64,000 bases of DNA, taken from contig CAVVJT010000010.1 of assembly GCA_963748625.1 (NCBI GenBank), positions 1,088,001 to 1,152,000 on the forward strand, read 5' to 3'. Below the pieces are notes generated by a model. That model saw only the letters and a list, made by a program, of their open reading frames with translations. It did no database searches and was not told the DNA's origin. Below, piece by piece: positions 54,380-63,784 of this stretch. Position 1 is the first letter of the stretch; the number at the start of each line of letters is the position of its first letter. This DNA comes from an uncultured Chloroflexia bacterium. GTDB lineage: Bacteria > Chloroflexota > Limnocylindria > Limnocylindrales > CSP1-4. Both the position numbers and the translations under genes were made by a program.

Positions 54380-54456
54380 GCCGCCGCCGTTGAGCTGCGG
54401 GCGACCCCGGTACACTCGGACGGCAGTCCACCCCAGTGCGAAGGAAATCGACCCGC

Positions 54457-54819
54457 ATGACACGGCCCGGGGCCATCCCCCAGCTCGACCCGCTCTACGC
54501 GGACATCCGCCGCCGCGACCCGGTACGCCCAGCCATCCTGCTCGACGTGCGCGAGGTGGACGAGTTCCGCAGGTCTCGGGCGGACGGCTGCCTGTTCATC
54601 CCCATGTCCCAGGTCCAGCTGCGGGTGTCGGAGATCCCCAAGGACCGGCCGGTCATGGTCATCTGCGCGTCGGGCAGCCGCTCGGTTGGCGTCACGTCCT
54701 TCCTGCTGGAGCAGGGCTTCGAGGATGTTGGCAGCGTGGCGGGAGGCATGGACGGCTGGCAGCGCATGGGCCTGCCCGTGAAGACCGGACCGGTCGAGGA
54801 CGGCGAAGGCCGGCTCTAG
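54457..54819 (+). CDS. Rhodanese-like domain protein
   Basis: LLDVRE..EF, ICASGSRS, GGMDGW. Confidence 0.85.
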   Translation: MTRPGAIPQLDPLYADIRRRDPVRPAILLDVREVDEFRRSRADGCLFIPMSQVQLRVSEIPKDRPVMVICASGSRSVGVTSFLLEQGFEDVGSVAGGMDGWQRMGLPVKTGPVEDGEGRL

Positions 54820-54900: not shown

Positions 54901-55080
54901 CCGGTGGGGGTCACGGACCGGCCGTCCGAGCACGGGATGTGCAGCAAACCCCGACTGGCTGCACGCCCGCCGCACAGCGCGTCTCCCGGTGACTCCCCGA
55001 TGAGTGAGTCAGCGAACGCTGCGCGGGCGGCCGTCCGTGCACGGGACGTGCGGGACACCTCGAGATCTGACGTGAATCGC

Positions 55081-55116
55081 GAAGGCCGCCGGCGGTGCCG
55101 GCGGCCTTCGTTTGTT
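55081..55116. terminator. Intrinsic terminator hairpin between convergent transcription units
   Basis: gaaggccgccgg-cggtg-ccggcggccttc followed by gtttgtt. Confidence 0.7.
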
Positions 55117-55130
55117 GACGAGGAAGGCGA

Positions 55131-56594
55131 TCAGCCCTTGCCGCGCCGGCGCAGACGCTCCCACCAGCCCCGGACCTGGGGCTTGTGGTTGAACGCCCAG
55201 CCGATCAGCAGCAGGACGATGAAGTTGACGGTGCCCACGCCCGCGGCGTTGAGGTAGCCGATCTGCTGGCCGATCTCGCCCTGGAGCTGCAGCCCCGGGA
55301 CGGTGGCGCCCAGGATGCCGGCCTGGAAGAACGGAGCCTGCGGAGCAAGGTAGGTCCGGGCAACCCCGGCCGTCACGCCGTCAGCGGTGGTGCCACCGAA
55401 CAGGAAGGCGTACGGACCGTTGACCACACCGCCCGACCCCTGCACCCCGACGCCGAGGTCCGTCTGCGACAGGTTCATCCAGGCGGTGATCACGCCCTCG
55501 GCATTGGGCTGGGCCCAGTAGGTCTCACTGCGCGGCGTGACCCCGTCGGAGCCGCCCTGGACGTAGATCACGCCGTTCGACGCGAACCCGGACATGTCCG
55601 TCCGCGGACCGGGAAGGTTGGTCTCCGCGCTCGCACGCCACAAGGCGACGATCGCGTTGGGGTCATCGGCCGGCGCCGGGTTCTCCGCGTCGCCGCCGAC
55701 CAGGCCCTGCTGGACCGTGGCGACAACCTGGCCCTGGTCGTTCGTGCCACCGACGAGGGTGATCACGTCGCCCACGTGCGCGGCGAAGCCATCCACGTTG
55801 GCCTCGAACAGCGGGGTCTGCTCGGCCCAGGCGCTGTACGTGCCCTTGGTGTCCACCTGCGTCTTCCAGACGCTCTTGGTCGCAGCCGTGCCGTCGGTGC
55901 CGCCCAGGAGGACGATGCCGTCGGAGACGGTGACCGCCGCGGCACCCGCACGTGGCGCCGGAAGCGCGAGCGCATCCACGGCCGTCCACTCACCGATCGC
56001 GCCGCCGTTCTCGACGGTGAGGCTGAAGACGGTCGAGGTGGGCGCACCCGCGGCGTCGAAGCCGCCGATCACGAACAGCGTGCTGCCGACCGCGACGAAC
56101 GCGGCGTCGGAGCGGGGCTCCGGCAGCGCCGGGCCTGCGGACCAGACGTCAAGGTTGCCGCTCCCCACGACGTGGGAGATCCAGGTGTCGGCGGTTGCGG
56201 CCGCCCCGTCGGACCCGCCCGCCACGATGTAGGTGGTGCCGATGACGGCCACGGCGGCGTCGGTGGTGGCCTGCGGCAGGTTCACCTCCGGCGGCGCCGG
56301 CTCCCAGGGCAGCGTGGCGCCGGCCGGGGCCGGGCACGGGAGGGTCTCGTTCTCGGCCGGGCAGAAGCTGACCACGGGCACCTGCACGAACGGTGCCAGG
56401 GGCCACAGCTCGACCGTCCGCCCGACGGTGAAGTAGTAGGCCCGGTCTGGGATCCAGCCGAGCATCGTGATGATCACGACGAACCAGGCGAGTGCCTTGA
56501 CGATCGACCAGGGCCAGCCTTCAGCATCGAACATCCCGAACACGACGCGGCGGCGCACGGTGTGCTTCGGAGCGGGGATTGCCGTCTGAGCCAT
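55131..56594 (-). CDS. Membrane-anchored Kelch-like beta-propeller protein
   Basis: Repeats ..GG.DG...W...LP.PR (YIVAGGSDG, LFVIGGFD, VLLGGTDG, YVQGGSDG, FLFGG); N- and C-terminal TM segments; 4 nt after the cytochrome c gene. Confidence 0.8.
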   Translation of the reverse strand: MAQTAIPAPKHTVRRRVVFGMFDAEGWPWSIVKALAWFVVIITMLGWIPDRAYYFTVGRTVELWPLAPFVQVPVVSFCPAENETLPCPAPAGATLPWEPAPPEVNLPQATTDAAVAVIGTTYIVAGGSDGAAATADTWISHVVGSGNLDVWSAGPALPEPRSDAAFVAVGSTLFVIGGFDAAGAPTSTVFSLTVENGGAIGEWTAVDALALPAPRAGAAAVTVSDGIVLLGGTDGTAATKSVWKTQVDTKGTYSAWAEQTPLFEANVDGFAAHVGDVITLVGGTNDQGQVVATVQQGLVGGDAENPAPADDPNAIVALWRASAETNLPGPRTDMSGFASNGVIYVQGGSDGVTPRSETYWAQPNAEGVITAWMNLSQTDLGVGVQGSGGVVNGPYAFLFGGTTADGVTAGVARTYLAPQAPFFQAGILGATVPGLQLQGEIGQQIGYLNAAGVGTVNFIVLLLIGWAFNHKPQVRGWWERLRRRGKG

Positions 56595-56598
56595 CGCG

Positions 56599-57682
56599 TC
56601 AGCCCCCGACCTTGAGGGTGCCGGTCATGTTGGGATGGACCGTGCACACGAAGGTGTAGTCGCCGGCCGGGAGGGCCTGGACGTTGTAGGTGGTCACGAT
56701 GGGCCCCGTGACGAGCTCGCCCGTGAAGATCTCCGCCCCATTGCCGTCCTTGATCGCGATGTTGTGCGGGATGCCGGCGTCCTGGTTGTCGAACTCGATC
56801 TTGAAGGGGATGTCGGCCGGGGCGGCCAGCTCGCCGTTCACGAATGCGATGTTGAGGGCGGCCTCCTTGATCACGTCACCCGCAGGCGGCAGCGACTCCC
56901 CGGGCACCTCGCCCGACGGGGCCGGCGTGGCGGCACCCGACGACGGGGCCGGCGTGGCGAACGCGTCGGTCCAGCAGTCCGGGAAGGGCGTCGCACCGGG
57001 CGCCGGCGCGTACGCGGGATCCACCCAGCCGGTGAATGTGAGCTCCTCGCCCGTGACCGGATCCAGCTTGGGCTCCCACAGCACCGGGTCCATGACCCGG
57101 AACGTGTCGTCCTTGGACGCCCGCAGGTACTCGATCAGGTAGTTGATCTGCATGTAGTTGAGCGGGACCAGGCGGGTTCCCCGTGTTCGACCAGACCGGC
57201 ATGATGCTGTCGGGATTGCCGCAGGCGTAGCGCCCGCCGGACACGAGCATGTTGCGCAGGAAGTCCGGGTTGAGGTGCGCGAACAGCTTCGACTGGTCGT
57301 TGAGCTTGGGACCCTTGCCGCCCTCGCCGTCAACGCCGTGGCACTGCGCGCAGTTGGCCTGGTACAGGTCGTAGCCACGCTCGACGGCCGTCACCTGCTG
57401 ATCCTCGGTCGCCTGGTCCAGCCGCGGCGTGACGCCAAGGGCCGGCATGCCCAGCTCGATGAAGTAGTAGACGATGACGAACAGCGCCACGAGGGTCACC
57501 GCGAGGAAGCCCACGAACCGCGCGTTCGCGGACTGGCGGACGATCCGGGCGGCGCGCTCGGGTGTCAGGTCGTTGCGGTGGGCCGACGGCGGCGCCGAGA
57601 AGCGCTCCGCGGGCGCCGGCGCGGACGCGGGCACCGGGGCGGGCAGGCGCTCCTCGGGCGGGCGGCCGGTCTGCTCGGTCAT
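56599..57682 (-). CDS. Membrane cytochrome c fused to C-terminal cupredoxin (apparent +1 frameshift near 57164-57166)
   Basis: TM helix, CAQCHG, distal MP. After removing one base the frame continues GPLNYMQINYLIEYL ... PHNI ... CTVHPNM (type-1 Cu). Confidence 0.8.
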
Positions 57683-57722
57683 CGGACTCCTCGGTGGACG
57701 GGCGGGCGGGGGTGTGACGGGA

Positions 57723-58397
57723 TCAGATGCACCCGGTCGGGGTGCGCGGGGGCTCGATGCCGGGCTGGCCAACCGCGACCGGGAGCGGGCCGAGGGTGAT
57801 CTTGCCGGTGTCGATGGTCAGGGCGCCCTCACCGTCCACGACGACGGCGAAGCGATCCATGCCGCGCGGCGCGGGCCCGTACTGCGAGCCGTCGGCCTTC
57901 ACGCCGAGGCGGTCGTAGCGCGAGCCGTGGCACGGGCATTCGAGCCAGAAGTTCTTCTCGCACGGGTTCGGCTTGCAGCCGAGGTGCGGGCAGCGCTGGT
58001 AGAGCGCTCGGACGTTGACGTTGGTGCCATCCCCGGTGGCATCCTCGCCCGGCAGGAATGCCTGCTGGTTCGGATCGACCAGCAGCACGAACGCCTTGGC
58101 CGAGGAGTAGTAGACCGGGAAGCCCTGGTCGACCGGGAGCGCGGAGTTGTCGGCCTTGACCTGGTCGAGCGTGCCGATCTTCACCAGGCCGCCGAACTTG
58201 CCCTCGAGGTTGGGCCACAGGAAGCCGACGGTGCCGGCGGTGACCTCGATCAGCCAGAGGCCCATGGCGGCGGCCAGCGAACCGCGCAGCAGCTCGCGGC
58301 GGGACACGCCCTCGACCTGCTCGTGACGGAGGCTCTTGATCGCCTCCGTGGTCAGCGCCTGCGGCTTGGAGGCCGGCTCGACGGGGTAGTTGCTCAT
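57723..58397 (-). CDS. petC: Rieske [2Fe-2S] protein of Rieske/cytb complex
   Basis: Tat motif SRRELL plus TM; CPHLGC, CPCHGSRYD, GPAPR. Confidence 0.92.
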   Translation of the reverse strand: MSNYPVEPASKPQALTTEAIKSLRHEQVEGVSRRELLRGSLAAAMGLWLIEVTAGTVGFLWPNLEGKFGGLVKIGTLDQVKADNSALPVDQGFPVYYSSAKAFVLLVDPNQQAFLPGEDATGDGTNVNVRALYQRCPHLGCKPNPCEKNFWLECPCHGSRYDRLGVKADGSQYGPAPRGMDRFAVVVDGEGALTIDTGKITLGPLPVAVGQPGIEPPRTPTGCI

Positions 58398-58416
58398 GAC
58401 TCCGGATTCCTTCGAA

Positions 58417-59034
58417 TCAGAGGGCGAAGTGAAGGCCCGGCGTCCCGATCGAGAAGAACTCGAGGTACGGGATGACGAACGCGTAGCCGGGACCGCGGAA
58501 GAAGATCCCGACGAAGGTGACGAACAGGCCGAGGCCCGCGAACAGGGAGAACAGCACGACGGCGGTCTTCCGGTCGGACGGGCGGGTGGCCAGCAGGTTG
58601 GCGCGGTCGAGGAACGGGATCAGGGCCGCACCCACGAGGACGAAGGTGGGCACGAGGACACCCGCGACGGTCGGGTGGAAGTAGGCCAGCAGCTCCTGCA
58701 GGCCCAGGAAGTACCACGGCGCCTTGGCCACCGCGGGGGTGACGTTGCCGTTGGCAAGGTCCTCGAGCGGGGCGTTCATGAACAGGCCCATCGCGAGCAG
58801 GAACACGCTCATGAGGGCCGCCGCCATGAACTCGATGGTCAGCAGGTGCGGCCAGGTCATGACCGTGTCGTCAGGTTCCTTCTGGACCCGCACGACCGCA
58901 TCCTGCTTGACCAGGGCCAGCAGGCGGTAGGGCCGTGCCGACATGGGCACGCGCTGCTTGTCGATCTCGGTGCGCCGGGTCGGATCGACCGGGGCGACGA
59001 CCCGCGTCTCGTTCGGCTGCTTCGTATCGGTCAT
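58417..59034 (-). CDS. petD: Cytochrome b C-terminal part (subunit IV)
   Basis: TWPHLL, KAPWYFLGLQELL (PEWY-equivalent), PFLDR...P..R. Confidence 0.85.
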   Translation of the reverse strand: MTDTKQPNETRVVAPVDPTRRTEIDKQRVPMSARPYRLLALVKQDAVVRVQKEPDDTVMTWPHLLTIEFMAAALMSVFLLAMGLFMNAPLEDLANGNVTPAVAKAPWYFLGLQELLAYFHPTVAGVLVPTFVLVGAALIPFLDRANLLATRPSDRKTAVVLFSLFAGLGLFVTFVGIFFRGPGYAFVIPYLEFFSIGTPGLHFAL

Positions 59035-59049
59035 CTCGTCACCCCCGTC

Positions 59050-59779
59050 TCAAAGCGGGCCGCTGATGCCACCGTCCTTGCGGATCCGCCAGAAGTGGAC
59101 CGCGAGGAAGATGGCCGCAACGAGCGGGAAGACCATGATGTGCAGCACGTAGAACCGGAGCAGCGTGTTCTGGCCCGACCTCGATGCCGCCCAGGAGGAG
59201 GAACTTCGAGGGGGTGTTGAACAGCGGCGCGTAACCGGCCATGTTCGTGCCGATGGTGATGGCCCAATAGGCGATCTGGTCCCACGGGAGGAGGTAGCCC
59301 GTGAACGAGAGCATGATCGTGAGGAAGAGCAGGACCACGCCCACGACCCAGTTGAACTCGCGCGGCGGCTTGTAGGCCCCGTGGTAGAAGACCCGCATCA
59401 TGTGCAGGAAGACGAAGAACACCATCAGGTGGGCGGCCCACCGGTGGATGTTCCGGGTCAGCAGGCCGAACACCACGCGGGACTGGATGTCCAGGATGTT
59501 CGAGTAGGCCTGCGTGTCCGATGGGATGTAGAAGAACATCAGGTACACGCCGGTGACCGTCAGCACGAGGAACAGGAAGAAGCTGAGGCCGCCCAGGCAG
59601 AACGTGTAGGCGAACTTGACCGCGTGCTGCCGGACCCGCACAGGGTGCAGGTGCAGGAACACGTTGTTCATGACCGCGTACGCGCGCGACCGCTCGTCGT
59701 TCGGGTACGGGTTGCGGAAGATCGACCGCCAGACGGGTGACCGCCTGATGCTCTGGTCGACCCGCTCCAGGAAGCTCAC
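59050..59779 (-). CDS. petB: Cytochrome b6 (N-terminal part; apparent +1 frameshift near 59174-59176)
   Basis: YTFCLGG (heme ci Cys), IHRW...[18 protein letters not shown]. Helix [10 protein letters not shown](x14)H...GISGPL* lies in the next frame. Confidence 0.88.
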
Positions 59780-61618
59780 CTACGCTCCTCCTGCCACGCC
59801 GGCGGTTCCGGCGAGTTGCGCGTCACGGTACGACTCCTTGTAGAGCCGGCCGTCGCTCGAGATCTCCTGGAGCTCGAACCGCTCCATGGTGATGGCATCG
59901 AAGGGGCACCGCTTCACGCAGAGCGCACAGCGGATGCACCGCTCTTCGTCGAGGACCATGGCTGCGCCGTTGGCCCAGCCGTATGCCTCCTCGACCTCGG
60001 GCAGCAGCCCCTCGGTCTTGAGCTGGTTCACGTCCACCATGTGGATGACCCCCTCCGGGCACACGTCGGCACACGCGCCGCACAGCACGCACCGGAACGG
60101 GTCGAACCAGATGTTGTAGTTGCACATGAGGCAGCGGGTGCTCTCGGCCACCGCCGCCGTCGTGTCGTATCCCAGTTCCACAGGGGTGTTGAAGTTGAGG
60201 ACGACGTCCTCGCGGCCACCGGGCATCCGCTGGGAGACCGGGATCACCGGGATGTGCTGGCGGGGCAGCACGTCGTACAGCTCCGGCATCTCGTGCCGCC
60301 AGGAGCTCGTGATCTTCACGTTGGGCGTGACCGTGACGTCGGTGCGCCCCGCGAGGTAGCGGTCGATCGCGTAGGCGGCCTTCTTGCCGTGGCCTGCCGA
60401 CTCGATCATGGTGGTGGGGCCGGTCACGAAGTCGCCGCAGGCGAAGACGCCGCGGATGTTGGTCGCGTACGTCGCCGGGTCAACCTTGAGGCGCCCGCGG
60501 CCGACCTCGAAGTTGGCCTCCACCGGCAGGAACGAGAGGTCCGCGGCCTGGGAGACGGCGGGGATGATCGTCTCGCAGGGGACCGTGTACTCGGATCCCG
60601 GGATCGGCACGGGCGAACGGCGGCCGGACGCATCGGGCTCGCCGAGCTTGTTGCGGATGAACGTGATGGCGACGAGCTTGCCGTCCTCGCCGATCAGCTC
60701 CACCGGGCTCACCAGGAAGTCCATGCGGACGCCCTCGAGCTCGGTCTCGCCCAGCTCCTCCTCGTCCACGACCAGCTCCGACCTGGTGCGCCGGTAGGCG
60801 ATCGAGACGTTCTTCGCGCCGAAGCGCAGGCTCGTCCGGGCGCAGTCCATGGCGGTGTAGCCGCCACCGATGACGACCACGTTCTCCCCGACCGTCATCT
60901 CCTGGCCGAGGTTGGCGCGCTTCATGAAGTCCACGCCGTACTGCACGCCTTCGAGGTCAGCGCCCGGGACGTCCAGGTACACCGGGTTCATGGCACCGGC
61001 CGTGATGGCGATGGCGTCGTAGTCCCGCTGGAGGTCCTCGAAGGGGACATCGATGCCGATGGTGGTGTCGTAGACGAACGTCACGCCCAGGCGCTCTACC
61101 AGGCGCACGTCCATCTCGATGGCGGCGCGCGGGAGGCGGAAGGCGGGAACGCCCATGAGGAGGGTGCCGCCACCGAAGGGCAGGCTGTCGAACACCGTGA
61201 CCTGGTAGCCGCGGGTGGCGAGCTCGCGGGCGACAGCCAGGCCGGCCGGGCCTGCGCCGATCACGGCGACACGCTCGTCGCGCGGGGTGATGGCCGGCAT
61301 CGCGTCCGGGATGCCCGACGCCTCGTGCCACTCCACGAGGAACCGCTTCATGGCGCGGATGGCCAGGGGCCGGTCGATGTCGCCCCGCCGGCACGCGCGC
61401 TCGCACGGCGCCGAGCACACGTAGGCGCACATCGCCGCGACCGGATTGGGCTCGCGCGCGAGGATGTAGCCCTCCTCGAAGCGGCCTTCCGCTGCGAGGT
61501 TGAGGTAGCCCCGGCAGTTGGTGCCGACGGGACAGGCCTCCTGGCACTCGATGTTGCACTGGAGCCAGGACGCGTCCACGGGCTGGACGAGGAACTCCTG
61601 GGTGTGATCGAGGGTCAC
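59780..61618 (-). CDS. GltD/NfnB/DsrL-like FAD- and NAD(P)-binding oxidoreductase with C-terminal 2x[4Fe-4S] ferredoxin
   Basis: CQEACP, CAYVCSAPCERACRR, GAGPAG, GGGYTAMD..R, YRR, GDFVTG, RCLMC, CVLCGACADVCP, CIRCALCVKRCP. Its stop abuts the cytochrome b6 start. Confidence 0.88.
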   Translation of the reverse strand: MTLDHTQEFLVQPVDASWLQCNIECQEACPVGTNCRGYLNLAAEGRFEEGYILAREPNPVAAMCAYVCSAPCERACRRGDIDRPLAIRAMKRFLVEWHEASGIPDAMPAITPRDERVAVIGAGPAGLAVARELATRGYQVTVFDSLPFGGGTLLMGVPAFRLPRAAIEMDVRLVERLGVTFVYDTTIGIDVPFEDLQRDYDAIAITAGAMNPVYLDVPGADLEGVQYGVDFMKRANLGQEMTVGENVVVIGGGYTAMDCARTSLRFGAKNVSIAYRRTRSELVVDEEELGETELEGVRMDFLVSPVELIGEDGKLVAITFIRNKLGEPDASGRRSPVPIPGSEYTVPCETIIPAVSQAADLSFLPVEANFEVGRGRLKVDPATYATNIRGVFACGDFVTGPTTMIESAGHGKKAAYAIDRYLAGRTDVTVTPNVKITSSWRHEMPELYDVLPRQHIPVIPVSQRMPGGREDVVLNFNTPVELGYDTTAAVAESTRCLMCNYNIWFDPFRCVLCGACADVCPEGVIHMVDVNQLKTEGLLPEVEEAYGWANGAAMVLDEERCIRCALCVKRCPFDAITMERFELQEISSDGRLYKESYRDAQLAGTAGVAGGA

Positions 61619-61933
61619 GAAGCGGACGCGCCTCTTCTGCGTGCGGTGGGCTGGGCGACGGAAACCACGACGGGGTGCTCCGCCGACCGGGGGAGATTAC
61701 CAAGCCGAAGGCGGACCTGCATAGCGAATGAGGGCCATTTCGACCCCGAAACCATGCCGGAGGTCGCCGTGGTCCCGGGCCGCGGGACGACGTGCGCGGC
61801 CCAGCAGGGTCCCGCACGAGGAGCACGCGCGGCCGGACAGCCGGACCCGCGGACGGACAGCCCGCCGGCCGTTCCCGTCCCGGCGCGACCCGGGCACTCG
61901 ACACCGTGTGCGCGGCCCGGGTTGACGACCGGG

Positions 61934-61962
61934 TTGACGCCCGGGGTGGGCGCAGCTACGCT
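61934..61962 (+). promoter_or_regulatory. Sigma70-type promoter for downstream gene
   Basis: TTGACG-N17-TACGCT; the -35 sits within an 11-bp direct repeat ccgggttgacg (61917-61927, 61929-61939). Confidence 0.55.
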
Positions 61963-62005
61963 GGCCCGGTCACCGGCCCCGCAGGAGGGCCGTCTCAGGA
62001 GCAGC

Positions 62006-63784
62006 GTGAACCCGTCCGAGACCGCCTTCCTGGTCCTCGGCCTCGTCATTGGCACGGCGATCGGCGTCGCACTCTGGCTGGCCGCGCGCACGTGGCCCGC
62101 CCCCCGGCGGGAGGTGCGGCTGACGATCGCTCCGCACGCGATCCCCGTTCGCAGGGCCACCACGCTGGCCACGCCGGACGGTCGACGCGACCAGGGACCG
62201 CTCCCCGGCTCCCCTGACGGCGACGCCCTCGCGCACGACCCTCGCGCCGCGCTCGCGGTCCCGGCGGCACGGCCCACGATGGTTCCCGCGTCGGCGCAGG
62301 CGATGCTTCCGGTGGTTCGAACGCCTGTTCCCAATGCCCTCACGGGAATCCCCCTCAACGCGGTGGCCGTCCCGATCGTGGCCGATGAGGTGGACCGCAT
62401 CCCAGCCGCCTCACCGATCCGGACAGGTTCGATGGCGGCGTCCAGCTCGATCGCGGCGTCCATCGTCCGCACGGCGGGGGCGGTCGCGGTCCTCGAGCAT
62501 CCGCGGACACCCCTCGCGACCCCGGGAACGAGGCCGATGGCCACCGAGCGGTCGGGCGACAGGCCTGCCGCCTCGCCCGGGACCCACGGCACACCCGCAC
62601 TGCCGGACCCGGCCGCGGTCGCCATCACGGCCGCCGGACCACTGGCTGGTGCGTGCACCGACGAGCGGCGCATGGCGGAGGAGCGGTGCGCCCTCGCCGA
62701 CGCTGCGCGGGAGGAGTCCCGACGGGTCACCGAGACCTTGCGCACGGCCCAGCGCTCCTACGACGCCCTACGTGAGCGGGTGGAGCGTGCGCAGGATGTC
62801 GGCGATCCCCGCCGCGTTGCTGACGCGAAGAGCCGCCTCCATGCGGACTTCCGGACCGCGAACGAGGCGGCCAAGGGTGCCGACGAGGCTGAGACGGCCG
62901 CCCGCGAGTGGCTCGATGCGATCAACCGCCTGAACACGGCCGTGCGTGACGCTGCCCGCCTGGCCGACGTCGGCGGCGCCGAGCTGCGCGCCCAGCTGCC
63001 CACCATCGAGCGGCTCGGGCTCGAGGCCGAGGCCGCCCGGATCGCGGCCGACAACGCTGCCGAGGGCTGCCTTGCGGCGCGCGAGCGCCTGGCCGCCTGC
63101 GAGGAGGACGCCACGCGCGCCGCCGCCGCCGCGGTCATCCCCGCTGAGCCAGACGAGGAGCACCCGTTCGCCGGGGTGTGGCCCGCCGAAGAGCCCGGCT
63201 TCGCTTCGCCACCCGCGCCGCTGGAGCCCGACGGCACCGGCGTCTCCGCGATCATTCGCGTGCTGCGCGGTGACCGCGATGCCCGTGAGCAGATCGTCGC
63301 CGCGCTTGCCGGGCCCGACCCCGACGCCCAGCGCGAGTGGCACCTGCGCCTCGCGCACCTCGTGGACGCGATCACGGCCCGGTCCATCGAGGACGGCTAT
63401 CTCGACCTGCCGGCGGACGACCACTTCTGGAACATGTTCGACGTCCGCGAGGCGCGCGACATCGTGGGCGCGCTCTCAGCCCTGGGCTTCCGCTATGACG
63501 GCATGGGCGGGTTCGCCGATGGGCGCGTGCCCGCGCTGCGCGACCTCTCGCTGGCCGTCGGGTACGCCGGCCTCGACCGCATGCGCATCCGCTCGTGGCC
63601 CCGTGAGGACGATATGGCCCGCCTGTACGCGAACGCGACCGTCGCCTGCGACGAGTGGCTCGCGACCCTTGCCGGCGACCTGTCCCTCGGCCGGATGGTG
63701 GACGCGCTCGGCGCCCGGGCGGCGGCGCTGGCGGACGTCTGGAATGCGTGGGGGCGCGTGCGGCCGGTGCTGCTGGCGGGCTAG
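62006..63784 (+). CDS. N-terminally membrane-anchored coiled-coil protein of unknown function
   Basis: SD aggag plus GTG; TM FLVLGLVIGTAIGVALWL; Pro/Ala linker; long heptad-rich region; C-terminal globular domain ending WNAWGRVRPVLL. Confidence 0.72.
   Translation: MNPSETAFLVLGLVIGTAIGVALWLAARTWPAPRREVRLTIAPHAIPVRRATTLATPDGRRDQGPLPGSPDGDALAHDPRAALAVPAARPTMVPASAQAMLPVVRTPVPNALTGIPLNAVAVPIVADEVDRIPAASPIRTGSMAASSSIAASIVRTAGAVAVLEHPRTPLATPGTRPMATERSGDRPAASPGTHGTPALPDPAAVAITAAGPLAGACTDERRMAEERCALADAAREESRRVTETLRTAQRSYDALRERVERAQDVGDPRRVADAKSRLHADFRTANEAAKGADEAETAAREWLDAINRLNTAVRDAARLADVGGAELRAQLPTIERLGLEAEAARIAADNAAEGCLAARERLAACEEDATRAAAAAVIPAEPDEEHPFAGVWPAEEPGFASPPAPLEPDGTGVSAIIRVLRGDRDAREQIVAALAGPDPDAQREWHLRLAHLVDAITARSIEDGYLDLPADDHFWNMFDVREARDIVGALSALGFRYDGMGGFADGRVPALRDLSLAVGYAGLDRMRIRSWPREDDMARLYANATVACDEWLATLAGDLSLGRMVDALGARAAALADVWNAWGRVRPVLLAG

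What the first reader, a model, noticed from the sequence alone, without database searches (positions are those of the whole stretch)
55131..61618. Unusual Rieske/cytochrome b6 operon headed by an NfnB/DsrL-like NAD(P)H flavo-Fe-S subunit
Seen: six tightly packed minus-strand genes (gaps 0, 15, 19, 40 and 4 nt): a GltD/NfnB-like oxidoreductase with extra 2x[4Fe-4S]; split cytochrome b6 (heme-ci CLGG, 14-residue His spacing in helix D); subunit IV with KAPWY replacing PEWY; a Tat Rieske protein (CPCHGSRY); a cytochrome c-cupredoxin; and a Kelch-like protein. The Rieske gene follows cytochrome b rather than preceding it. Known: b6f-type complexes with heme ci can exchange electrons with FNR/ferredoxin on the n-side, and anammox Rieske/cytb clusters include NAD(P)H oxidoreductase subunits proposed to couple quinol oxidation to NAD(P) reduction. 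Inference: a complex wiring NADP(H) (YRR motif) or ferredoxin directly to the Qi site, with a built-in blue-copper exit, in a non-anammox lineage. This is the strongest candidate here for an undescribed bioenergetic system.
Basis: partly seen in the sequence, partly recalled or inferred. Interest (0 to 1): 0.82.

Follow-up and report, generated by a model that had tools for sequence, protein, structure and literature searches.

The report
NADPH-linked Rieske/cytochrome b respiratory operon
This six-gene operon encodes the only complex-III-type respiratory enzyme found in this Limnocylindria bacterium, with an NADP(H)-binding iron-sulfur flavoprotein encoded alongside it; the pairing is already known from anammox bacteria but its reaction has never been measured, and these aerobic relatives could make it testable.

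Summary
The six genes, gaps and motifs are real. Two genes carry single-base frameshifts that close relatives lack, probably assembly errors. The host is Ca. Limnocylindrales. The cassette was complete and in order in 15 of 16 relative loci (one cut by a contig end), including 1.0-1.4 Mb genomes where it is the only quinol-to-oxygen route found. It is not an undescribed system. It is an APWY-clade (subfamily G) Rieske/cytochrome b complex with a GltD/NfnA-like subunit, 41% identical to the anammox one. The pairing is in print and recurs in Acidobacteriota and Bacteroidota. This scan noted the operon before in at least seven other genomes. New here: a cytochrome c-cupredoxin exit, a Kelch membrane protein, and a short subunit IV motif that tracks the flavoprotein (24 of 28 loci versus 0 of 25; post hoc, about three lineages), also where the flavoprotein gene stands alone, as in the named species Thermogemmatispora carboxidivorans. 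Best mechanism (45%): quinol bifurcation sends one electron to an aa3-type oxidase and lets the other reduce NADP+. NADPH feeding the Qi site is the main rival. Binding and direction are untested.

The parts
59780..61618 (-). NADP(H)-type Fe-S flavoprotein (OXR), 612 aa: N-terminal two-cluster domain, FAD and NADPH-type Rossmann folds (YRR), RCLxC motif, C-terminal 2x[4Fe-4S] ferredoxin domain; no membrane helix
   Evidence: Pfam; NCBIfam best PRK12771 418.9 bits, under its 516 cut-off; PDB best NfnA/StnC by sequence and fold (the fold from the 91% identical L024 model); 41% to the Brocadia subunit; hydropathy
59050..59779 (-). Short four-helix cytochrome b (242 aa when read in frame) with haem ci motif CLGG, His43/His45 (LHLHP) and WRIRKDGG; one-base frameshift near 59172-59177
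   Evidence: best NCBIfam ExtP 245.4 bits, under its 290 cut-off, on the frameshifted product; His43 aligns with Brocadia His43
58417..59034 (-). Subunit IV, three predicted membrane helices, Qo motif APWY, Glu68 at the place of the anammox glutamate
58903..58929 (-). Subunit IV residues 36-44 (YRLLALVKQ), before the first helix: a motif that tracks presence of the OXR; candidate docking element (inference)
57723..58397 (-). Rieske protein with twin-arginine signal-anchor and the Ser/Tyr high-potential signature (CHGSRY)
   Evidence: best PDB matches 9rk4 and 9rk3, which I take to be the two Kuenenia Rieske structures of PMC12954380; signature
56599..57682 (-). Membrane-anchored monohaem cytochrome c fused to a C-terminal type-1 copper cupredoxin; one-base frameshift near 57167
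   Evidence: CxxCH, Met161 and His312/Cys352/His355/Met358 (L024 numbering) invariant in 16 of 16; Pfam on the intact relative
55131..56594 (-). Kelch beta-propeller between an N-terminal and a C-terminal membrane helix, with an invariant Cys pair; no redox motif seen; probably an outer-face accessory subunit
55080..55110 (-). 14-bp hairpin 20 nt after the Kelch stop, between the operon and a convergent rhodanese gene; likely terminator
   Evidence: fold z = -4.41, 0 of 200 shuffles as stable; not listed by the terminator scan

Best explanation
The operon encodes the cell's complex III with a cytoplasmic NADP(H) flavoprotein subunit. Shown by sequence: the parts and their cofactor motifs. Inferred: (1) menaquinol is oxidised at Qo; (2) one electron goes Rieske to haem c to type-1 copper to the CuA site of an aa3-type oxidase; (3) the other crosses the membrane through haems bL and bH; (4) on the cytoplasmic side it either completes a Q cycle at haem ci/Qi or passes, possibly through a bis-His43 haem at the dimer interface, into the OXR's four Fe-S clusters and FAD, where two electrons reduce NADP+. 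The large drop from menaquinol to a Ser/Tyr-type Rieske centre pays for the uphill step. The branch is probably optional, since the Qi-side residues are kept. I put 'the OXR is a subunit' at about 0.8 and 'net direction is NADP+ reduction' at a little over half of that.
For: Linkage: zero-gap junction, order kept in 15 of 16 loci; all 75 of 301 Chloroflexota genomes with a strong OXR C-terminal match also hold a cytochrome b match, and 6 family members lack both; cytochrome b lies beside the OXR in 66 of 80 metagenome loci. Anammox likeness: OXR 41% over the full length; His43 and Arg233-Lys234 align with the residues that PMC12954380 models around the extra haem; the Lys that replaces a cluster ligand and the subunit IV Glu are kept. 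Co-migration of the anammox subunits is reported second-hand in PMC12954380. Energetics: Ser/Tyr signature means 300-350 mV (PMC3509893); MenB and MenA pass their cut-offs in this genome; symmetry around -70 mV gives about -440 to -490 mV for haem bL (my arithmetic, argument). Exit: copper ligands invariant; the genome's CoxII has a CuA-like Cys-x3-Cys-x3-His-x2-Met motif and its own cupredoxin. Subunit IV motif tracks the OXR, 24 of 28 versus 0 of 25.
Against: No activity has been measured for any member. NADPH is not obviously scarce: glucose-6-phosphate dehydrogenase and PntB were found in 5 of 5 genomes. His43 and the Ser/Tyr Rieske signature also occur in relatives without an OXR, and His43 is missing in the f12 loci that have one, so neither is diagnostic. 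The electron must also cross the membrane against the potential, which makes the step marginal (my estimate). In the two streamlined genomes tested MenB was not found and MenA fell under its cut-off, so their quinone is unknown. On the OXR tree the window's protein joins one anammox subunit with SH-aLRT 82 only, and the other anammox subunit falls outside. In 8 or more Chloroflexota families the OXR gene lies away from the operon.
Confidence: 0.45

Rival explanations
1. Same complex, opposite direction: the OXR oxidises NADPH and feeds electrons through haem ci to the Qi site, as FNR is thought to do at cytochrome b6f (recalled; FNR co-purification is cited in PMC5600118). It acts as an NADPH overflow valve or supplies the second electron for fast two-electron quinone reduction.
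For: Downhill and so needs no special haem potentials. Qi-side Cys62 and Glu68 are kept. These genomes make NADPH by other routes. In two streamlined genomes the only NuoF match has altered motifs and complex I carries a GltD-type module, and no NDH2_C match was found, which suggests NADPH is a respiratory donor there.
Against: It bypasses proton-pumping complex I, the objection raised for anammox in PMC12954380. Many OXR-adjacent cytochromes b elsewhere lack the haem ci Cys (f12, f15 and most non-Chloroflexota loci), so the OXR does not depend on haem ci.
Confidence: 0.27
2. The OXR is a soluble ferredoxin/NADP(H) oxidoreductase that is co-regulated with, but not bound to, an ordinary complex III.
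For: No membrane helix. The gene stands alone in families f8, f15, f23, f27, f40, f45 and f50. Related proteins of the same architecture (about 31%) sit before 2-oxoacid:ferredoxin oxidoreductase genes instead. 110 of 185 genomes with a cytochrome b match have no strong OXR match.
Against: No genome of 301 had a strong OXR match without a cytochrome b match, and the two are lost together in 6 family members. The subunit IV motif follows the OXR even when the gene is unlinked. The pairing recurs in four phyla with different gene orders.
Confidence: 0.15
3. Reversed Q cycle or confurcation: an outside high-potential donor enters through the cupredoxin and cytochrome c, and NADPH supplies the low-potential electron, so that menaquinone is reduced at Qo.
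For: Kao and Hunte 2014 call APWY characteristic of reverse-running complexes, while noting that none is characterised.
Against: It is the only cytochrome b locus in this genome. In two streamlined genomes there is one haem-copper oxidase with a CuA-like motif and no bd oxidase or NrfD-family protein was found, so a forward complex is needed. No donor enzyme lies in the operon.
Confidence: 0.08
4. The OXR is itself a flavin-bifurcating NfnB-type enzyme that splits NADPH electrons between ferredoxin and the quinone pool.
For: Same fold family as NfnB, and it carries a ferredoxin domain.
Against: Best sequence and fold matches are the NfnA/StnC subunits, whose FAD is not the bifurcating site (recalled). 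It has Lys (MKRF), as these do, where NfnB has a Glu ligand (NfnB residue recalled). Its clusters are modelled as one wire in the anammox homologues. There is no NfnA-type small partner in the operon.
Confidence: 0.05

Closest known systems
Anammox Rieske/cytochrome b complexes with an NAD(P) oxidoreductase subunit (Kuenenia Kustd1480-1485 and Kuste4569-4574; PMC12954380, PMC5600118)
   Same: Short cytochrome b with CxGG (50% over 200 residues to Brocadia), subunit IV with KAPWY and Glu, full-length OXR (41%), His43 and the Arg-Lys pair, Ser-type Rieske. The Kustd-type Brocadia locus L177 also has the subunit IV motif.
   Different: Monohaem cytochrome c-cupredoxin in place of hexa- or octahaem cytochromes; no HAO-like partner; three-helix subunit IV, not five; added Kelch protein; order OXR-cytb-IV-Rieske-c; only complex of its kind in an oxygen-respiring genome, not one of three.
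Cytochrome b subfamily G (Dibrova 2017) / APWY clade (Kao and Hunte 2014); NCBIfam ExtP/ExtQ
   Same: Split cytochrome b, APWY Qo motif, CxGG, mid-to-high-potential Rieske signature; co-occurrence with NAD(P)-binding Fe-S oxidoreductases is reported for the subfamily.
   Different: Most members examined have no adjacent OXR (77 of 80 loci; 25 of 53 have none in the genome). The cupredoxin fusion together with the Kelch gene was seen only in two Limnocylindrales families.
Bfu-family NfnA/StnC subunit (PDB 9bov, 9n5u, 8oh5) and GltD/NfnB fold
   Same: FAD/NADPH module with the N-terminal cluster domain, the LKRF/MKRF Lys and the late RCxxC motif.
   Different: No NuoG-like N- or C-terminal domains and no BfuB/C partners in the operon; ends in a single 2x[4Fe-4S] domain.
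Cytochrome b6f with FNR
   Same: Four-helix cytochrome b, haem ci Cys, 14-residue His spacing; best solved cytochrome b matches are b6.
   Different: APWY not PEWY, no cytochrome f, Glu in subunit IV, and a four-cluster GltD-type flavoprotein in place of FNR.

Membership tests
Rieske/cytochrome b complex (b6-type) | Four-helix cytochrome b with four haem His and a separate subunit IV | tested here: met
   H112, H126, H213, H228 invariant in 30 of 30 aligned; Pfam; needs the frameshift to be read as an error
Rieske/cytochrome b complex (b6-type) | Rieske protein with both cluster boxes and a twin-arginine anchor; c-type acceptor | tested here: met
APWY clade / subfamily G | APWY Qo motif and CxGG on a short cytochrome b | tested here: met
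APWY clade / subfamily G | Placement in the published cytochrome b tree | tested here: inconclusive
   My quick tree puts it in a 43-row group with Brocadia and Ktedonobacteria sequences (SH-aLRT 92) but holds no published reference set
Anammox-type complex with NAD(P) oxidoreductase | GltD-like FAD/NAD(P) protein with four Fe-S sites encoded in the operon | tested here: met
Anammox-type complex with NAD(P) oxidoreductase | Dimer-interface His and basic residues of the modelled extra haem; Glu at haem ci | tested here: met
   His43, Arg233-Lys234, subunit IV Glu68 align with Brocadia residues numbered as in PMC12954380; the haem itself is only a model
Anammox-type complex with NAD(P) oxidoreductase | Multihaem c-type partner and five-helix subunit IV | tested here: not met
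   One CxxCH, three predicted helices against 6-8 CxxCH in Brocadia loci
Anammox-type complex with NAD(P) oxidoreductase | OXR orthologous to the anammox subunits (one clade) | tested here: inconclusive
   Groups with L177 at SH-aLRT 82; L181 unresolved; quick tree, careful search unfinished
Anammox-type complex with NAD(P) oxidoreductase | Physical association and NAD(P)+ reduction | not testable with these tools
   Needs complexome, structure and assays
NfnB (flavin-bifurcating NfnAB large subunit) | NfnAB gene pair; Glu-ligated proximal cluster (recalled) | tested here: not met
   No small-subunit gene in the operon; Lys at that place; better match to NfnA/StnC
DsrL | Membership of a dsr gene cluster and DsrL-specific sequence signature | not tested
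   Not in a dsr cluster here; no DsrL model or sequence was compared
ExtP/ExtQ (NCBIfam, Geobacter ext operon) | Curated score cut-offs | tested here: inconclusive
   ExtP 245.4 of 290 on the frameshifted product, ExtQ 48.1 of 150; intact relatives are named ExtP by NCBI

The most novel reading that the evidence does not exclude
Limnocylindrales run an NADPH-centred respiratory loop: complex III returns every low-potential electron as NADPH, and a complex I whose input is a GltD-type NADPH module (its NuoF has altered motifs) pumps protons with it a second time. That would move up to 14 instead of 10 charges per electron pair reaching oxygen, workable only below about 160 mV of proton-motive force (my arithmetic). 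It would be an efficiency device of oligotrophic soil and lake bacteria, with subunit IV residues 36-44 as the dock that recruits the flavoprotein even when its gene is unlinked.
Probability: 0.12. Interest if true: 0.9.

Novelty: new variant of a known kind. Interest (0 to 1): 0.5.

Why it matters
Whether a Rieske/cytochrome b complex can use quinol bifurcation to reduce NAD(P)+ has been proposed for anammox bacteria since about 2013 and is still supported only by Rieske potentials and models (PMC12954380). Here the same architecture is the only complex III found in aerobic genomes as small as 1.0-1.4 Mb, so it is a main respiratory enzyme, not an anammox speciality. Its minimal form (one haem c, one copper) and the unlinked form in Thermogemmatispora carboxidivorans (WP_052890510.1 and WP_052888329.1; that the species is in culture is recalled) offer simpler material for a direct test. 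It also warns that Chloroflexota proteins annotated 'glutamate synthase small chain' or 'selenite/tellurite reduction ExtP' may be respiratory subunits.

Tried and rejected
Complex prediction: cytochrome b x2, subunit IV 25-200 x2, two 4Fe-4S and OXR 496-602 of relative L024 gave 'no answer' (0.14, mark 0.32); no evidence either way. His43 as a marker of OXR-bearing complexes: rejected, it is kept in relatives without an OXR and absent in f12 loci with one. Ser/Tyr Rieske as a marker: rejected for the same reason. KAPWY and Rieske-after-cytochrome-b as novelties: rejected. True pseudogenes: unlikely, not excluded without this sample's reads. Expression: no run held half the words (best 0.27); one RNA contig (X15 record 12, 59742-59887) bridges the OXR-cytochrome b junction and RNA depth is zero over 61786-62000 in 3 of 3 RNA runs, but these are relatives' contigs and show no single transcript. 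Promoter scan found none. NDH-2 search gave no match over the cut-off in 5 genomes and the model rang in only 3 of 14 controls, so it is weak. The careful OXR tree did not finish; the quick one is reported. The looser subunit IV pattern located only 13 of 41 starts and was not run on negatives. Papers not held: Dibrova 2013 and a recalled Azoarcus 2-oxoglutarate:NADP+ oxidoreductase paper.
Full report
Observation. Pfam gives Fer4_20, Pyr_redox_2 and Fer4 for the 612-residue oxidoreductase (OXR), Cytochrome_B, Cytochrom_B_C, Rieske, cytochrome c plus cupredoxin, and Kelch. Two genes are frameshifted in this assembly by one extra base in a short G or C run. The halves are in one frame in 16 of 16 relative loci for cytochrome b and 14 of 15 for cytochrome c; the exception, L028, has further frameshifts in two other genes. 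Contigs of public runs lack one base at 57167 (2 of 4 runs) and at 59172-59177 (3 of 4 runs). I treat both as assembly errors. A 14-bp hairpin (z = -4.41) follows the last gene.

Host and conservation. Named close homologues are from Ca. Limnocylindrales. A 78-91% OXR orthologue was found in 38 of 40 relatives, 22 of 24 in the genus and 16 of 16 in a family of 1.0-1.4 Mb genomes. I take that family to be the lake genus Limnocylindrus from genome size and order; no call named it in full. I fetched 16 of the 38 loci: 15 hold all six genes in order and one ends at a contig edge. It is the only PF00033 locus in this genome. A third Limnocylindria family has the OXR just upstream of cytochrome b in 15 of 15 genomes; in its 5 fetched loci there was no cupredoxin or Kelch match, and the 2 inspected have a dihaem cytochrome.

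Wider spread. Of 301 Chloroflexota genomes, 185 match the cytochrome b at E <= 1e-20. A profile of the OXR's C-terminal part matched 100 at E <= 1e-22, and 75 at E <= 1e-37, a cut I set at the gap after seeing the scores. All 75 are among the 185. Six family members lack both. In families f8, f15, f23, f27, f40, f45 and f50 the OXR gene is away from the operon; exact look-ups name several as Ktedonobacteria, one as Thermogemmatispora carboxidivorans. Of the 25 weaker genomes I fetched 11 loci; none was beside cytochrome b, and the three of the 31% group that I read precede a 2-oxoacid:ferredoxin oxidoreductase alpha gene (Pfam for one). Outside the phylum, an OXR was adjacent in 3 of 80 GTDB loci, all anammox. 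The OXR profile hit 13 of 36 of those genomes, and 13 of 15 fetched hit regions had a cytochrome b beside them, in records titled Acidobacteriota, Bacteroidota and Brocadiales, mostly as OXR-Rieske-cytb-IV without the haem ci Cys. In 80 metagenome loci, 66 had cytochrome b, 2 only a Rieske gene and 12 neither.

Anatomy against the anammox complexes. The OXR is 41% identical over 580 residues to the Brocadia subunit of L177. Its best solved relatives by sequence and fold are the NfnA/StnC subunits, ahead of NfnB and GltD (model of relative L024, pLDDT 82.8), as reported for the Kuenenia proteins. It keeps the Lys near the FAD-proximal cluster and an NADPH-type YRR (that YRR favours NADPH is recalled). 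Brocadia cytochrome b His43/Arg247 and His62/Arg266/Lys267 have the numbers that PMC12954380 gives for the modelled extra haem, and align with His43 and Arg233-Lys234 here. Subunit IV has Glu68 at the anammox position. The Rieske protein's best PDB matches are 9rk4 and 9rk3. Against a simple orthology, the quick OXR tree joins this protein with L177 at SH-aLRT 82 and leaves L181 outside.

A subunit IV motif. Before its first helix, subunit IV carries YRLLALVKQ. A pattern for it matched 24 of 28 loci whose genome has the OXR, adjacent or not, and 0 of 25 without. The four misses are f40, two f50 loci and Brocadia L181. The pattern was written after seeing these sequences, and the matches fall in about three lineages on the cytochrome b tree, so it is no statistical test. 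It matched 1 of 77 further loci, namely L177. A looser form matched 10 of 13 starts that a script could locate among 41 OXR-adjacent loci. I read it as a candidate docking element; that is inference.

Respiratory setting. In this genome: MenB and MenA over cut-off, one haem-copper oxidase whose CoxII has a CuA-like motif and its own cupredoxin, a bd oxidase and two NrfD-family genes. In the two streamlined genomes tested (G025, G028; 93% and 91% complete): one haem-copper oxidase, no bd oxidase or NrfD match, no MenB match, MenA under cut-off. G212, which lacks the operon, also lacks a COX1 match but has bd. Glucose-6-phosphate dehydrogenase and PntB were found in 5 of 5. Complex I carries a GltD-type module inside NuoG, beside a NuoF with altered motifs.

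Mechanism. The complex most likely runs forward as complex III, because it is the only quinol-to-oxidase link found in the small genomes. Electrons leave by Rieske, haem c and type-1 copper (ligands invariant in 16 of 16) to CuA. A Ser/Tyr Rieske (300-350 mV) with menaquinone implies a very reducing haem bL, about -440 to -490 mV by the symmetry argument, enough to reach NADP+ through the OXR wire. I give NADP+ reduction 0.45, NADPH oxidation into Qi 0.27, no physical link 0.15, reverse running 0.08 and flavin bifurcation 0.05. Against the favourite: NADPH has other sources, the Qi residues are intact, and the Rieske signature and His43 also occur without an OXR. The Kelch protein has two membrane anchors and no redox motif; its nearest Atlas clusters are unnamed Chloroflexota Kelch proteins; a scaffold or assembly role is my guess.

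What is known. PMC5600118 (abstract, passages, section 8 part 1, section 9, word search of supplements) states that subfamily G cytochromes b co-occur with NAD(P)-binding Fe-S oxidoreductases in planctomycetes and 'many other cases'; its Fig. S1 neighbourhoods could not be read as a figure and may include Chloroflexota cases. PMC12954380 (passages, sections 13 and 14) gives the anammox potentials and models. PMC4122944 (passages, section 21) names the APWY clade, including Chloroflexi. PMC3509893 (passages) gives the Rieske signatures. bioRxiv 10.1101/366732 (passages) defines Limnocylindria and does not contain the word 'cytochrome'. Kartal 2013, Dibrova 2013, ten Brink 2013 and de Almeida 2016 I know only through these. 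Searches listed no paper on this operon in Limnocylindria or on the subunit IV motif; the library lacks most subscription journals. Seven earlier notes of this scan describe the same kind of operon in other genomes; they are unchecked and add no support.

Verdict. Real, conserved and probably central to respiration in this lineage, but a new variant of a described and untested kind, not a new system. Its value is as simpler material for an open question. Interest 0.5.

Noticed in passing
G000:C7 about 1196800-1201500 (L113); L108:7199-12100; L114: Complex I has a GltD-type FAD/NADPH module inside NuoG that ends in a NuoI-like part, beside a NuoF with altered motifs (NGYESDP for NADEGDP, a missing Cys). 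In G025 and G028 it is the only NuoF match, so complex I may take NADPH.
   Followed up: partly
L111:10788-11918 (G000:C2): The genome's CoxII is fused to a C-terminal type-1 copper cupredoxin, like the operon's cytochrome c; cupredoxins may replace soluble cytochrome c between complexes III and IV.
   Followed up: partly
L079:7017-8846 and L053:4794-6432: Thermogemmatispora carboxidivorans has a stand-alone OXR and, elsewhere, a cytb-IV-Rieske-c operon whose subunit IV carries the motif.
   Followed up: yes
L195-L201: A related 31% OXR group lies just before a 2-oxoacid:ferredoxin oxidoreductase alpha gene in the three loci read; it recalls the NADP+-linked 2-oxoglutarate oxidoreductase of Azoarcus (recalled, paper not found).
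   Followed up: partly
L074, L075, L213, L214 (family f12): OXR-led operons whose cytochrome b lacks both the haem ci Cys and His43, whose Qo motif is degenerate, and whose OXR has lost the YRR motif; in L074 cytochrome b and subunit IV are fused.
   Followed up: partly
L295, L298, L299, L302, L303: Terriglobia carry a second operon, OXR-Rieske-cytb-IV, whose cytochrome b keeps the first His (FLHLFS, four of five read) but not the haem ci Cys.
   Followed up: partly
window 62360-63784 (+), ORF possibly starting earlier: Divergent gene with no Pfam match, conserved upstream of the operon in the 11 genus-level loci fetched and not matched in the 5 loci of the streamlined family.
   Followed up: partly
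window 54436-54819 (+): Single-domain rhodanese convergent on the operon's end; conserved there in genus-level relatives.
   Followed up: partly
G185, G203, G212, G220, G236, G268: Six genomes of the same family lack both cytochrome b and OXR matches; G212 also lacks a haem-copper oxidase match but has bd oxidase, suggesting loss of the whole high-potential branch.
   Followed up: partly
G025, G028: No MenB match and MenA under cut-off in the streamlined genomes, although they keep complexes I, III and IV; their quinone source is unexplained.
   Followed up: no
L113:11236-12810: The genome's complex I NuoF appears to change frame part-way, a further sign of single-base errors in this assembly.
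   Followed up: no
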